17,632 nucleotides of DNA from a virus (Duplodnaviria > Heunggongvirae > Uroviricota > Caudoviricetes), in the IMG/VR virus record IMGVR_UViG_2534682109_000010; one strand, given 5' to 3'. The position numbers were made by a program. This document shows, in pieces, positions 6,001-9,000 of the stretch (position 1 is the stretch's first letter; the number at the start of each line of letters is the position of its first letter).

Positions 6001-9000
6001 TGAATTTACCTTCAAACGATTCATTCGTGAGAGCGGTAAAGCGTACCTGGAGCCGCTCAACCCACGATTCGACATGATTGAGTGTAACGAAAACTGCCAG
6101 TTTGTCGGAAAGGTCATCAAATCGCAGTGGAATGATGAGACTTTTGATTGAGCTCACAGAGTGATTTGACATCCTTCACGCCTGAAGAATGTGGAGGATG
6201 TCAAAAGCACGTTGGCATCATCATGCCACGTAAAGAGGATTAGTTATGCTTCAAAAGCTAGACGTCGCAGACAGCGTGCGTCGCGAGCTGTCTCCCCGTA
6301 CCGCGCGTAAACACAAAGCAGAGTTCGGCCAGTTCATGACGCCTTCTGGCGTGGCCCGTTTTATGGCCTCCTTGTTTCCACCGAGCACAATGAAAACTTG
6401 CCGTCTACTGGACGCAGGCGCTGGTTTAGGCGCACTGTCTTGCGCCTTCCTCGACCGTTGGCTGGTTGGCGAGTTTGGCTTTGAGTCTGTCGAGGCAACA
6501 GCCTACGAAATCGACAAAAAGCTGTGTGGTCACCTTGCGAAGCACTTAACCGGGTACAGGAGAGTGACGCCCCGCATCATCGAAGGGGATTATATTGAGC
6601 TGGCAACCGCCGAAGGTCTACAGGATCGAGGTTATACCCATGCAATACTTAATCCGCCTTACAAGAAGATCAATAGCCAGTCAGCCCACCGGCAGGCTCT
6701 TCGCACTGTCGGTATCGAGACGGTAAATCTGTATTCCGCCTTTGTTGCACTGGCTGTAGGTGAGGTTGCACCTGGCGGGCAGATAGTGGCCATAATCCCA
6801 CGTAGTTTCTGCAACGGACCGTATTACCGTCCGTTCCGTAATTTCATACTTGAGCGGGCAGCAATCCGCCATATTCATTTGTTCGAATCACGTAGCAAAG
6901 CTTTCAGGGATGACGATGTGTTGCAGGAAAATATTATCATCCGCCTGGAGCGTGGAGGCCGTCAGGAGGCTGTTACAGTCACAACTTCGACCGATGATAG
7001 CTTTTTTGACCTGGTCACCTACGAACACCCATTTGACCAGATTGTGTACCCGGACGATTCGGAGCGGTTTATTCATGTGCCGACCACGCTCGAGAAAAGC
7101 ACCATTGAGTTATCATCTGCCGTACAATGTTCGCTGGCTGATATTGGCGTGAAGGTATCGACCGGACCGATAGTTGATTTCCGACTGAAAGCTCATTTGC
7201 GCAGCATGCCAGAAGAAGGAACTGTTCCCCTGATCTACCCGAGCCATTTGAGTATGAGTAGCACTGTCTGGCCTGTGGAAGGTTTGAAGAAACCCAACGC
7301 AATCATGCGCAACGACGAGACAGAAAAGTGGCTTTACCCGAACGGTTTTTATTGTGTGGTGCGTCGTTTCTCGTCGAAGGAGGAAAAGCGCCGAGTGGTA
7401 GCAAGCGTCGTTGATCCTGCTACCTTCAGTGAGTATTCAGTGTTGGGATTTGAAAATCACATGAACGTGTTTCATGAGAACAAACATGGGTTACCCGAGG
7501 CGCTGGCCCGTGGCTTGGCCGTGTTCCTGAACACTACCGCAGTGGATAAGTACTTCCGTCGCTTCAACGGGCATACACAGGTCAATGCAACCGACCTCAA
7601 GATGATTAAGTACCCAAGCCGTGACACTCTGATAGAGCTTGGCAAGTGGGCTATGCAACAAGAAACTCTCACGCAAGAACATATTGACGCTAAGCTAGGA
7701 GCTCTGACTGCATGAACAACCAAAATGATTATATTGAGGCCGCTCAGCAAATTATAGCATCCTTAGGCCTGCCCAGAGCGCAGCAGAATGAGCGTTCTGC
7801 TTTGTGTTTGCTGGCACTCCTGAACCTCACACCGGGAAAAGCATGGGCCGACGCGGAAAATCCGCTTGTGGGCATTACACCAATCATGAATTGGGTTCGG
7901 GAGCACTACGGCAAGGTCTACGCACCCAATACTCGTGAGACATTCCGCCGCCAGTCTATGCATCAGTTCTGCGCTGCTGGAGTAGCCCTCTACAATCCGG
8001 ACAAGCCCGATCGCCCAGTGAACAGCCCGAAGGCTGTTTATCAGATCGAACCTGCTGCTCTGTCCATGCTACGCACTTTCGGCAGCCCGGCATGGCACGA
8101 TAGCCTTGCAACCTATTTAGCCGAGCGTGAAACGCTGGTTACCCGCTATGCTAAGGAGCGCGAACAGAATCGTATCCCTGTTGAAATTGCTGCGGGCCAG
8201 CAAATAACCCTCAGTCCCGGCGAGCACAGCGAACTTATCCGTGCCATAATAGAGGACTTCGCCCCACGTTTTGCTCCGGGTAGCGTGCTGGTCTATGCTG
8301 GCGACACTGGCGAAAAGTGGGGCTACTTCGACGCTCCACTGCTGGCCGGGCTAGGTGTTGATGTGGATTCACACGGTAAAATGCCAGATGTGGTGCTACA
8401 TTTTACTGCGAAAAACTGGCTGCTACTGGTTGAGTCTGTCACCAGTCATGGACCGGTTGATGGGAAGCGGCATGCTGAGCTTGCCAGGCTGTTTGCCGGA
8501 TCAACAGCCGGACTTGTCTATGTGACCGCTTTTCCAAATCGCTCCATCATGGGGCGATATCTTGGTGAAATCGCATGGGAAACAGAGGTATGGGTGGCTG
8601 ATGCACCTTCTCATCTTATTCACTTCAACGGAGTGCGATTTCTTGGCCCCTACTCTACTGAATGAGAACAGGACCAGATAAATAGCCCGGCCCATGCGCC
8701 GGGTTTTTCTTTGCATATCCCCTCCTGTTATCTGTCCCCTTAAAAAATAAATCACTTTAAAAATCAGTTAAGTAATATTTTTTCACCCCCAATAACCACT
8801 AACGGTATTTACATAAAAATCACCGCAAGTTATATTTCTTTCAAGCCAGAAACATCGCGCCCTTACACAGGGCTACATAAATCAGTCGTACGGCGCGACT
8901 TAACCCGCCGCAAAATGCTCTTTAACAACCTGGAGCTTTACAGCGTCAATGACCTGTTTAGACCCCTACACGTAAACGTGCTGTATCATCGGGTGCGATC

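What the first reader, a model, noticed from the sequence alone, without database searches (positions are those of the whole stretch)
6152..6245. Two palindromes between cI and the methyltransferase gene: candidate control point for R-M expression
An 11-bp perfect inverted repeat (TTTGACATCCT / AGGATGTCAAA, 6165-6205, 19-nt spacer) and a second palindrome TGGCAT-catc-ATGCCA (6213-6228) sit between the cI stop and the methyltransferase RBS. Neither is followed by a U-run, so they are not obvious intrinsic terminators. An 11-bp perfect repeat is unlikely by chance in 94 bp. They could be operator sites for a dimeric regulator or an RNA structure that tunes the M/R ratio or uncouples R-M translation from cI.
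Basis: seen in the sequence. Interest (0 to 1): 0.45.

Follow-up and report, generated by a model that had tools for sequence, protein, structure and literature searches.

The report
Transposon-end palindrome and resolvase remnant
The two palindromes between the phage repressor gene and the restriction-modification genes are leftovers of mobile DNA: a 39-bp palindrome built from the right end of insertion sequence IS609, and the last 40 bases of a plasmid resolvase gene. They show how the cassette reached the phage, and they are not a dedicated control switch.

Summary
Both palindromes are real. Palindrome 1 is longer than reported: a 15-16 bp stem, 0 of 5000 shuffles. Palindrome 2 alone is near chance (P about 0.09).

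The window is an Stx2a phage of the P13374/PA2 type. On the + strand it reads cI, then the EcoGIII (PstI-like) M and R genes, then a strong terminator. This is the same slot as lambda cI-rexAB-timm.

Palindrome 1 (6166-6204) is a decayed copy of a 40-bp perfect palindrome. The first 31 nt of the consensus equal the last 31 nt of the IS609 right end, and both arms end at the TnpA cleavage site TCAA. Copies lie in about 3,500 plasmids and 366 phage records, in unrelated contexts. It also follows the same cI with other cargo, and homologous plasmid R-M cassettes lack it.

Bases 6205-6244, including palindrome 2, are the 3' end of a serine-recombinase gene that precedes M-R on plasmids. That gene is broken exactly 3' of a TTAY tetranucleotide, the IS609 target type. 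Hairpin 2 keeps its pairing through two compensatory changes.

No promoter, terminator or regulator gene is associated with either palindrome. M and R are probably read through from cI. A role for the hairpins in the mRNA is possible but untested.

The parts
5438..6151 (+). cI repressor gene (HTH_3 + Peptidase_S24). It is the upstream gene of the presumed cI-M-R transcript.
   Evidence: ORF; Pfam; annotated as cI in phage P13374.
6166..6204 (.). Palindrome 1: a 39-bp decayed copy of the 40-bp IS609 right-end (RE/RE) palindrome TTGACATCCTCCACG-CCCTGAAGGA-CGTGGAGGATGTCAA. Each arm ends at the TCAA cleavage site, read on its own strand.
   Evidence: It is 90-92.5% identical to the consensus. RNA hairpin dG is -22 kcal/mol, z = -5.8.
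6165..6180 (+). Left arm of palindrome 1, the complement of the RE terminus. It carries C->T at 6176. Homology with palindrome-free cI relatives ends at 6165|6166.
6190..6205 (+). Right arm of palindrome 1, equal to the RE terminus ...GTGGAGGATGTCAA in + orientation. TCAA is 6201-6204. The junction to the resolvase remnant is 6204|6205.
6205..6244 (+). Remnant of the 3' end of a serine-recombinase (resolvase) gene. It reads KHVGIIMPRKED*, against KHVGVITPRQ* in plasmids. It came in with the M-R cassette and supplies the M ribosome-binding site region.
   Evidence: The plasmid gene has Pfam Resolvase + HTH_7 domains.
6213..6228 (+). Palindrome 2 (hairpin 2): TGGCAT-CATC-ATGCCA. The stem can extend through ACG 6209-6211 and CGT 6229-6231. 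RNA dG is -9.8 kcal/mol.
   Evidence: Conservation and two compensatory pairs over 15 distinct sequences.
6233..6239 (+). Shine-Dalgarno AAGAGGA of M, 4 nt 3' of hairpin 2. It is unpaired in the predicted fold.
6246..7715 (+). M.EcoGIII-type N6-adenine methyltransferase (PstI/BsuBI-like, CTGCAG).
   Evidence: PMC6602927.
7712..8665 (+). R.EcoGIII-type BsuBI/PstI-family endonuclease. Its start overlaps the M stop (ATGA).
8666..8682 (+). Right end of the cargo. Homology to plasmid cassettes ends at about 8673 (ACAGGA). It is followed by CCAGATAAA, which matches the IS609 left-end terminus plus target (CCGG|ATAA) at 8 of 9 positions. Significance is uncertain.
8684..8712 (+). Strong intrinsic terminator (8-bp G+C-rich stem and T-run). 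It is shared by all relatives whatever their cargo, and is the timm-like end of the cI operon.

Best explanation
The 94-bp cI-M spacer is made of two pieces of mobile-element debris. They mark the left edge of the EcoGIII restriction-modification cargo in the phage's cI-downstream moron slot.

(1) Palindrome 1 (6166-6204) is a slightly decayed copy of a 40-bp perfect palindrome. That palindrome consists of the subterminal hairpin and last 15 nt of the IS609 right end (IS200/IS605 family), joined head-to-head with their own complement. This part of IS609 is also the 3' hairpin and linker of the TnpB omega-RNA. Both edges of the palindrome are TnpA cleavage sites (TCAA|).

(2) Directly after the right-hand TCAA begins the last 40 nt of a serine-recombinase gene. 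On plasmids this gene sits 10 nt upstream of M-R. In the phage it is broken exactly 3' of a TTAY tetranucleotide, the IS609 target type. Inference: an IS609-like element once inserted into that resolvase gene, and its right end became the joint through which 'res-M-R was recombined in behind cI. Palindrome 2 is simply part of this remnant.

(3) Function, inferred and not shown. The spacer has no promoter or terminator, so M and R are read through from the cI promoters, as rexAB are in lambda. Both stems would then fold in the mRNA. Hairpin 1 could act like a REP element, as a 3'-exonuclease barrier or processing site that lets cI mRNA outlast the distal R-M message. Hairpin 2 leaves the M Shine-Dalgarno open. 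Neither is a specific operator.
For: Identity of palindrome 1:
- The consensus 40-mer shares its first 31 nt exactly with the IS609 right-end terminus next to insQ/tnpB in two independent insertions.
- The IS609 left- and right-end hairpins have the same loop, CCCTGAAGGA.
- IS609 cleavage sites TTAT and TCAA are published (PMC6906374).
- The right-end hairpin plus GGAGGAxGUCA aligns to the 3' end of Rfam HgcC, below threshold.

Dispersal:
- 3,563 plasmid records with 5,860 places, and 366 phage records.
- At least 6 copies in one Oxalobacter MAG that also carries an IS609-like right end.
- 55-bp fusions of the right and left ends occur in 933W and H-19B.

Not specific to R-M:
- The same cI plus palindrome is followed by other cargo.
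- Plasmid and metagenome M-R cassettes lack it.

Edges coincide with homology breaks: 6165|6166 against the UCPROB and strain-48 prophages, and 6204|6205 against plasmid cassettes.

Resolvase remnant: the alignment with 15 distinct res 3' ends, and Pfam Resolvase + HTH_7 in the plasmid gene.

Target-type tetranucleotide at junctions, read from uninterrupted relatives:
- TTAC or TTAT|AAGCAC in res.
- GGGGAAT|ATAA in F ccdB.
- TTAA|GCAAC in P1 lydC.

Operon layout: no promoter-like or terminator-like site lies between cI and M on the + strand, and a strong terminator sits at 8684.

Hairpin energies. Hairpin 2 compensatory pairs.
Against: - No expression data were available, so co-transcription and any hairpin effect on the mRNA rest on analogy with lambda.
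- No intermediate was found, that is, no IS609-like element inside res upstream of M-R.
- No empty site behind cI was found.
- The palindrome-free cI relatives read TAAT or TGAT at the left junction, not TTAT.
- The window contains no left-end hairpin and no tnpA or tnpB.
- How two right ends become one palindrome is not shown.
- The left arm is decaying in relatives such as STEC1585, with three mismatches. This argues against strong structural selection on hairpin 1.
- The compensatory changes in hairpin 2 occur in one lineage only. They could arise by templated quasi-palindrome correction and not by selection.
- In plasmids the hairpin 2 arms are also constrained by coding.
Confidence: 0.7

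Rival explanations
1. Operator model. The two palindromes are binding sites for a dimeric regulator, such as a C-protein-like factor, cI, or the HTH domain of R, which sets R-M expression.
For: Both are DNA palindromes just upstream of M. The R protein has an N-terminal HTH domain.
Against: - No controller gene lies in or next to the cassette.
- Palindrome 1 occurs in thousands of unrelated contexts and behind cI with non-R-M cargo.
- Plasmid cassettes lack palindrome 1, and many lack palindrome 2.
- Arm changes in hairpin 2 are symmetric or wobble-compatible, and its loop varies freely. That fits base pairing, not half-site recognition.
- No promoter is there to be operated.
Confidence: 0.05
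2. Selected RNA element. One or both hairpins are kept because they tune the cI : M : R expression ratio in the polycistronic mRNA, through an exonuclease barrier, an RNase III/E site, Rho-dependent attenuation, or RBS insulation.
For: - Both hairpins are strong on the transcribed strand: -22 and -9.8 kcal/mol, and z = -3.85 for the whole spacer.
- Both mutations in palindrome 1 are C->T changes that leave G-U pairs in the + strand RNA but give mismatches on the - strand.
- Hairpin 2 has two compensatory pairs, and its one-sided changes are mostly wobble-compatible. Only 4 of 500 shuffles reach the observed score.
- The Shine-Dalgarno is left unpaired.
Against: - The origin of both stems is fully explained without any function.
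- Hairpin 1 decays in relatives.
- R-M cassettes work elsewhere without either stem.
- The covariation comes from one lineage and is confounded by coding and by possible templated mutation.
- There are no expression data.
Confidence: 0.3
3. Autonomous mini-transposon. The 40-bp palindrome is itself a REP- or PATE-like unit. A resident IS609 TnpA mobilised it in trans and inserted it behind cI, independently of how the R-M cassette arrived.
For: - Many solo copies have sharp, constant borders at TCAA on both strands.
- There are several copies in one Oxalobacter genome.
- IS609 is present in 4,928 of 5,426 E. coli genomes.
- One Klebsiella copy abuts TTAT on one strand.
Against: - There is no left end and no left cleavage site.
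- The target tetranucleotide is not retained next to most copies.
- In the three testable cases only one flank continues in the uninterrupted relative.
- The only 'empty' site found keeps TT(GAC) of the element. It is best read as a 46-bp deletion between GAC repeats.
Confidence: 0.2
4. Transcription terminator or attenuator separating cI from R-M.
For: A stable G+C-containing stem lies directly after the cI stop. Family members often sit right after stop codons, for example ccdB, trbC and other cI genes.
Against: - No U-run follows either stem on the + strand.
- The true strong terminator is at 8684 and is shared by all cargo variants.
- M and R have no promoter of their own, so full termination would silence an R-M system known to be active (PMC6602927).
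Confidence: 0.1

Closest known systems
IS609 right end (IS200/IS605 family; the TnpA-recognised subterminal hairpin, which is also the 3' end of the TnpB omega-RNA)
   Same: The terminal sequence is the same (31/31 nt for the family consensus, 27/31 for the window copy). The hairpin loop is the same, and TCAA lies at the boundary.
   Different: There is no tnpA or tnpB, no left end and no adjacent TTAT. The 5' side of the hairpin is replaced by the complement of the 3' tail, which makes a perfect palindrome with a right-end terminus on both strands.
PATEs / MITE-like derivatives of IS200/IS605 elements
   Same: It is a short, gene-less derivative of the element ends, dispersed in many copies. 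True right-end/left-end mini-elements of 55 bp exist in 933W and H-19B.
   Different: PATEs keep both a left and a right end and can be mobilised. The window element is right end/right end only, and it sits at module joints.
REP/BIME elements and RAYT transposases
   Same: Both are roughly 35-40-nt palindromes at the 3' ends of genes, related to IS200/IS605 hairpins. REPs are known to stabilise upstream mRNA.
   Different: The sequence is different and has no GTAG motif. It lies mainly on plasmids and phages, not at hundreds of chromosomal copies. No RAYT is associated, and no mRNA effect has been tested here.
Lambda cI-rexA-rexB-timm operon (moron slot behind cI)
   Same: The layout is the same: repressor gene, then defence cargo on the same strand without a promoter of its own, then a strong terminator.
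   Different: The cargo is a type II R-M system, and the joint carries transposon and resolvase debris.
Plasmid res-M-R cassettes of the BsuBI/PstI family
   Same: M is 79-88% identical at the protein level, M and R overlap in the same way, and the 40 nt upstream of M including hairpin 2 are the same.
   Different: On plasmids those 40 nt are the end of an intact resolvase gene, which presumably supplies the promoter. In the phage the gene is cut off at a TTAY site.

Membership tests
IS200/IS605 insertion sequence (IS609) | Terminal sequence and subterminal hairpin of the right end, ending at the cleavage site TCAA | tested here: met
   PMC6906374. Met on both strands of the palindrome.
IS200/IS605 insertion sequence (IS609) | A left end with its own hairpin, abutting the target TTAT | tested here: not met
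   No left-end-like hairpin in the window. There is only a 9-nt CCAGATAAA at 8674-8682.
IS200/IS605 insertion sequence (IS609) | Encodes a Y1 transposase TnpA, with or without TnpB | tested here: not met
   BLAST of IS609 against the window finds only the two arms. The neighbouring ORFs are cI, M and R.
PATE / MITE of IS200/IS605 | Both the left and right ends retained around a short non-coding core | tested here: not met
   The window copy is right end/right end. The feature is met by the 55-bp elements in 933W and H-19B.
REP element | High-copy chromosomal palindrome with a conserved 5' tetranucleotide and a cognate RAYT | tested here: not met
   Only 218 places in 5,426 E. coli genomes, mostly on prophages and plasmids. 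No GTAG motif, and no RAYT seen.
REP element | Stabilises the upstream mRNA or modulates operon polarity | not testable with these tools
   Needs RNA 3'-end mapping or half-life measurements.
Intrinsic terminator | G+C-rich stem followed by a U-run | tested here: not met
   AAGCACG follows stem 1 and CGTAAAG follows stem 2.
C-protein / operator control of type II R-M | A controller (HTH) gene in the cassette and its C-box upstream | tested here: not met
   The cassette holds only M and R. On plasmids the upstream gene is a resolvase.
Serine-recombinase (resolvase) gene remnant | Nucleotide and reading-frame homology to the 3' end of an intact resolvase gene in the same position relative to M | tested here: met
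Known RNA families (Rfam 15) | A match at the gathering score | tested here: not met
   The spacer gives only chance-level miRNA-like hits. The IS609 right end matches HgcC below threshold.

The most novel reading that the evidence does not exclude
The 40-bp right-end/right-end palindromes are scars of a recurrent recombination route. Two IS609-like elements, each inserted next to a TTAN target in a different replicon and lying in opposite orientation, join through their right-end hairpins. This welds unrelated modules together, here a plasmid R-M cassette to a phage immunity region. If so, IS200/IS605 ends, which are also the TnpB omega-RNA 3' hairpins, act as general cargo-swapping linkers in thousands of enterobacterial plasmids and phages. 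The route may be driven by TnpA or by template switching during replication.
Probability: 0.35. Interest if true: 0.65.

Novelty: new variant of a known kind. Interest (0 to 1): 0.45.

Why it matters
For this phage, the result replaces a speculative R-M control switch with a concrete history. The EcoGIII cassette is known to restrict other phages and to alter expression of about 1,900 host genes (PMC6602927). It came from a plasmid res-M-R operon, lost its own promoter, and now depends on the repressor's promoters. R-M activity should therefore track the lysogenic state.

More widely, a 40-bp palindrome derived from an IS609-type right end marks module joints in about 3,500 plasmids and hundreds of phages. 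Two related mini-elements sit beside notable genes, stx1 and ccdB. If these palindromes are recombination joints, they point to a route of gene shuffling between plasmids and phages for which I found no description. They would also be a simple sequence marker for locating such joints.

Tried and rejected
- Rfam on the spacer gave only chance-level miRNA or snoRNA hits.
- The promoter scan found nothing in the spacer. The TTGACA in each arm has no usable -10 at 16-18 nt (and reading of the sequence).
- I considered that the palindrome was coding, as in the Oxalobacter reading MKKFDILHALKDVEDV. That frame stops after 32 codons.
- I looked for an IS609 left end, tnpA or tnpB in the window and found none.
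- The 'transposase' near the Klebsiella copy is an IS21/Mu-type fragment and is unrelated.
- I searched for the predicted empty site, cI..GAT|ATAAATAGCCCGG. It is absent from viral contigs and from complete E. coli genomes. All cI relatives fall into only two classes.
- The apparent empty site for the Klebsiella copy turned out to be a deletion derivative that retains TT(GAC).
- Searching papers for the sequence returned only one incidental table entry, an IS609 end in Shigella. I found no description of the palindrome family.
- A literature search for expression data on this phage found nothing.
- Hits outside Proteobacteria in the genome scan are consistent with chance matches to the degenerate pattern.
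Full report
**Observation.**
TTTGACATCCT at 6165-6175 pairs with AGGATGTCAAA at 6195-6205. TGGCAT-CATC-ATGCCA lies at 6213-6228. Both sit between the cI stop (6149-6151) and the M ribosome-binding site (AAGAGGA 6233-6239, ATG 6246).

Palindrome 1 is longer than reported, with 15-nt arms at 93% complementarity. As RNA it forms 16 pairs including two G-U. The dG is -22 kcal/mol on the + strand and -17.8 on the - strand. No shuffle of the 94 nt gave a perfect repeat of 11 bp or more (0 of 5000). A 6-bp stem like palindrome 2 appeared in 9.4% of shuffles. 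Neither stem is followed by a T-run, and the pattern scan found no promoter- or terminator-like site on the + strand in the spacer.

**Context.**
The window is 100% identical to Stx2a phages of the P13374, VT2phi_272 and PA2 type, and to about 134 complete E. coli genomes. On the + strand the order is:
- cI, 5438-6151 (HTH_3 + Peptidase_S24)
- M, 6246-7715 (Eco57I-type domain)
- R, 7712-8665 (BsuBI/PstI family),
- a strong intrinsic terminator at 8684-8705

The system is EcoGIII, specific for CTGCAG (PMC6602927). Relatives with the same cI carry entirely different cargo between cI and the same terminator. This is therefore the classical moron slot behind the repressor gene, as in lambda cI-rexAB-timm (established knowledge).

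**Palindrome 1 is not part of the R-M cassette.**
- In prophages G6/7 and STEC1585, cI and the palindrome are kept but the DNA to the right differs from 6205 onward.
- In UCPROB-001 and strain 48, cI is kept but homology stops at 6165|6166 and there is no palindrome.
- A homologous hairpin of about 40 nt turned up in unrelated places:
  - after trbC on IncI-type plasmids
  - on plasmid pMDL25
  - after a different cI in an E. coli A34 prophage
  - upstream of lydA in P1-like plasmids

The consensus is the perfect palindrome TTGACATCCTCCACG-CCCTGAAGGA-CGTGGAGGATGTCAA. It matches 3,563 plasmid records with 5,860 places (Klebsiella 2,161, Escherichia 840, Salmonella 260) and 366 phage records. 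An Oxalobacter MAG has at least six copies.

**What palindrome 1 is.**
A full-text search for the sequence found it in a table of indel calls from Shigella, extended by sequence that is not palindromic. That longer sequence matches 9,694 places in 4,928 E. coli genomes, always at the end of insQ/tnpB genes.

In two independent insertions, next to ydcO and yfeD, the element boundary is exactly |TTGACATCC.... The first 31 nt of the consensus palindrome are identical to the terminal 31 nt of this end. The element encodes a Y1 transposase and a TnpB. In K-12 insQ is the IS609 orfB (my knowledge).

On the tnpB-sense strand the right end reads ...TCCACG-TCCTTCAGGG-CGTGGAGGATGTCAA|. The left-end hairpin has the same loop. 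From four insertions the target is TTAT. This agrees with the published IS609 cleavage sites, TTAT on the left and TCAA on the right (PMC6906374). The right-end hairpin plus GGAGGAxGUCA aligns with the 3' end of Rfam HgcC, below threshold at E = 0.004. That fits its being the last stem of the TnpB guide RNA scaffold.

The solo palindrome is thus the right-end hairpin and tail joined to their own complement, with a TCAA edge on each strand. The window copy (6166-6204) differs from the consensus by three substitutions and a one-base loop deletion. Related 55-bp elements, in which the right-end terminus is fused through the shared loop to the left-end terminus, occur in 933W and about 42 nt upstream of stx1A in H-19B.

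**Palindrome 2 and the M ribosome-binding site region.**
M homologues of 79-88% identity lie on small plasmids of Pseudomonas, Aeromonas, Citrobacter, Serratia and Komagataeibacter. There M starts 10 nt after a serine-recombinase gene (Resolvase + HTH_7).

Window 6205-6244 aligns to the 3' end of that gene:
- phage: AAGCACGTTGGCATCATCATGCCACGTAAAGAGGATTAG
- plasmid: AAGCACGTCGGCGTCATCACGCCGCGTCAATGA (KHVGVITPRQ*)

Homology starts at 6205, immediately after the TCAA of palindrome 1. In uninterrupted resolvase genes the four bases before that point are TTAC or, in some alleles, TTAT.

Of 80 metagenomic M loci plus the plasmids, about 33 keep this resolvase tail, giving 15 distinct sequences. The rest have unrelated upstream DNA. 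None outside the Stx-phage group has palindrome 1 next to M.

Across the 15 sequences the 6-bp stem is paired in most cells. Two pairs change on both sides, both in the phage lineage (C-G to U-A, G-C to A-U). Most one-sided changes are G-U compatible. Only 4 of 500 shuffles reach the observed covariation.

All four substitutions in the first 27 nt of the phage remnant fall in the stem as two compensatory pairs. By my estimate that is unlikely by chance, roughly 1e-3 to 1e-4. Templated quasi-palindrome correction could give the same pattern without selection, and in plasmids the arms are also under coding constraint.

**How the joint probably arose (inference).**
The right arm followed by AAGCAC is exactly what a canonical IS609-type insertion 3' of TTAY in the resolvase gene would leave. 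Two other palindromes give the same signature when one flank is compared with an uninterrupted relative:
- F ccdB ends GGGGAAT|ATAA, which is TTAT on the other strand, where the Klebsiella plasmid has GGGGAAT|TTGACA.
- P1 has TTAA|GCAAC where P1-like plasmids have TCAA|GCAAC.

In each case the other flank is unrelated, so the palindrome sits at a mosaic joint. I therefore favour the view that each arm is a real right-end|flank junction, and that two inverted right ends were joined through their hairpins. The stems share 6 bp, TCCACG/CGTGGA. The loop is found in either orientation, for example window against G6/7.

This step is not shown.
- No intermediate and no empty site was found.
- The left junction cannot be checked against a TTAT-bearing relative.
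- At the right end of the cargo, CCAGATAAA (8674-8682) resembles the left-end terminus plus target at 8 of 9 positions. I noticed this after the fact.
- The one apparent empty site, in Enterobacter plasmids compared with Klebsiella, retains TT(GAC) of the element. It is best read as a 46-bp deletion between GAC repeats, which shows that the palindrome is unstable.

**Function.**
The spacer has no promoter or terminator, and the cassette lost the resolvase gene that presumably drove it. M and R are therefore most likely transcribed from the cI promoters and end at the 8684 terminator.

Both stems would fold in that RNA, and the predicted fold leaves the M Shine-Dalgarno free. Hairpin 1 could act as a REP-like 3' barrier or processing site. 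Its two mutations keep G-U pairing only on the transcribed strand. The left arm is accumulating mismatches in relatives, however. Hairpin 2 may be under weak structural selection.

Nothing supports an operator:
- There is no controller gene.
- Palindrome 1 is absent from other cassettes.
- Arm variation follows pairing, not half-site identity.

**Verdict.**
The control-point interpretation is at best partly right. The feature is a transposon-end palindrome plus a resolvase-gene remnant that record how the R-M cassette was captured.

The IS200/IS605 relationship is known biology. I found no description of the right-end/right-end palindrome as a widespread joint, so I rate it a new variant of a known kind, of moderate interest.

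Noticed in passing
window 9179-9254 and 9279-9366 (+): Rfam matches at gathering score to isrK (61.7 bits) and to the C4 antisense RNA (78.9 bits). They lie downstream of the R-M terminator, at the start of the next operon.
   Followed up: no
window 2343-2348; whole window: The 17.6-kb window has only one CTGCAG (EcoGIII/PstI) site, against about 5 expected. This suggests the phage avoids the site.
   Followed up: partly
L026 6626-6658, L029, L063-L065 (loop of palindrome 1): Some otherwise identical phages carry A->C in the loop (CCTGCAGAAT). This creates a CTGCAG recognition site for the phage's own R-M system inside the hairpin loop.
   Followed up: no
L055 1302-1356 (phage H-19B, M16625) and L054 1501-1555 (933W): A 55-bp mini-IS609 (right-end terminus, shared loop, left-end terminus) lies about 42 nt upstream of the stx1A start codon in H-19B. 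Its TTGACA-bearing end faces the toxin gene. A second copy lies near hokW in 933W. It could contribute to the stx1 promoter region.
   Followed up: no
window 6152-6244 (+): The cI reading frame stays open for 31 codons past its TGA stop, through both palindromes, to TAG at 6242-6244. Some records annotate a small hypothetical protein here.
   Followed up: no
L039, L041, L042, L045, L046 (Oxalobacter MAG CAZRQR01): One gut Oxalobacter MAG has at least six copies of the same 40-bp palindrome in unrelated flanks. It also has an IS609-like right end at a contig end (L045 5993-6046). This suggests the element family is shared between Enterobacteria and a betaproteobacterium.
   Followed up: partly
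L049 2502-2504, L050 2502-2504, L053 1502-1504: The annotated stop codons of ydcO, yfeD and a Klebsiella ccdB are supplied by the TTGA at the edge of the IS609 right end or of the palindrome. These elements therefore replace the natural 3' ends of genes.
   Followed up: partly
L124 930-975 and L125 610-655: Another IS605-type right-end-like sequence (…CCTTCAGGGCGGGGAGGATGTCAA|) lies about 190 nt upstream of a 79%-identical M gene in two metagenome contigs. No obvious tnpB is nearby.
   Followed up: partly
L143/L144 380-425 compared with L052 1495-1550: Enterobacter plasmids have lost the palindrome and 8 flanking bases by a 46-bp deletion between GAC repeats. This is an example of palindrome instability.
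   Followed up: yes
L001 3482-3784 (E. coli G6/7 prophage): A prophage with the same cI and palindrome retains only a 100-aa fragment of the BsuBI/PstI endonuclease gene and has no M gene. The palindrome loop is in the opposite orientation to that in the window.
   Followed up: partly
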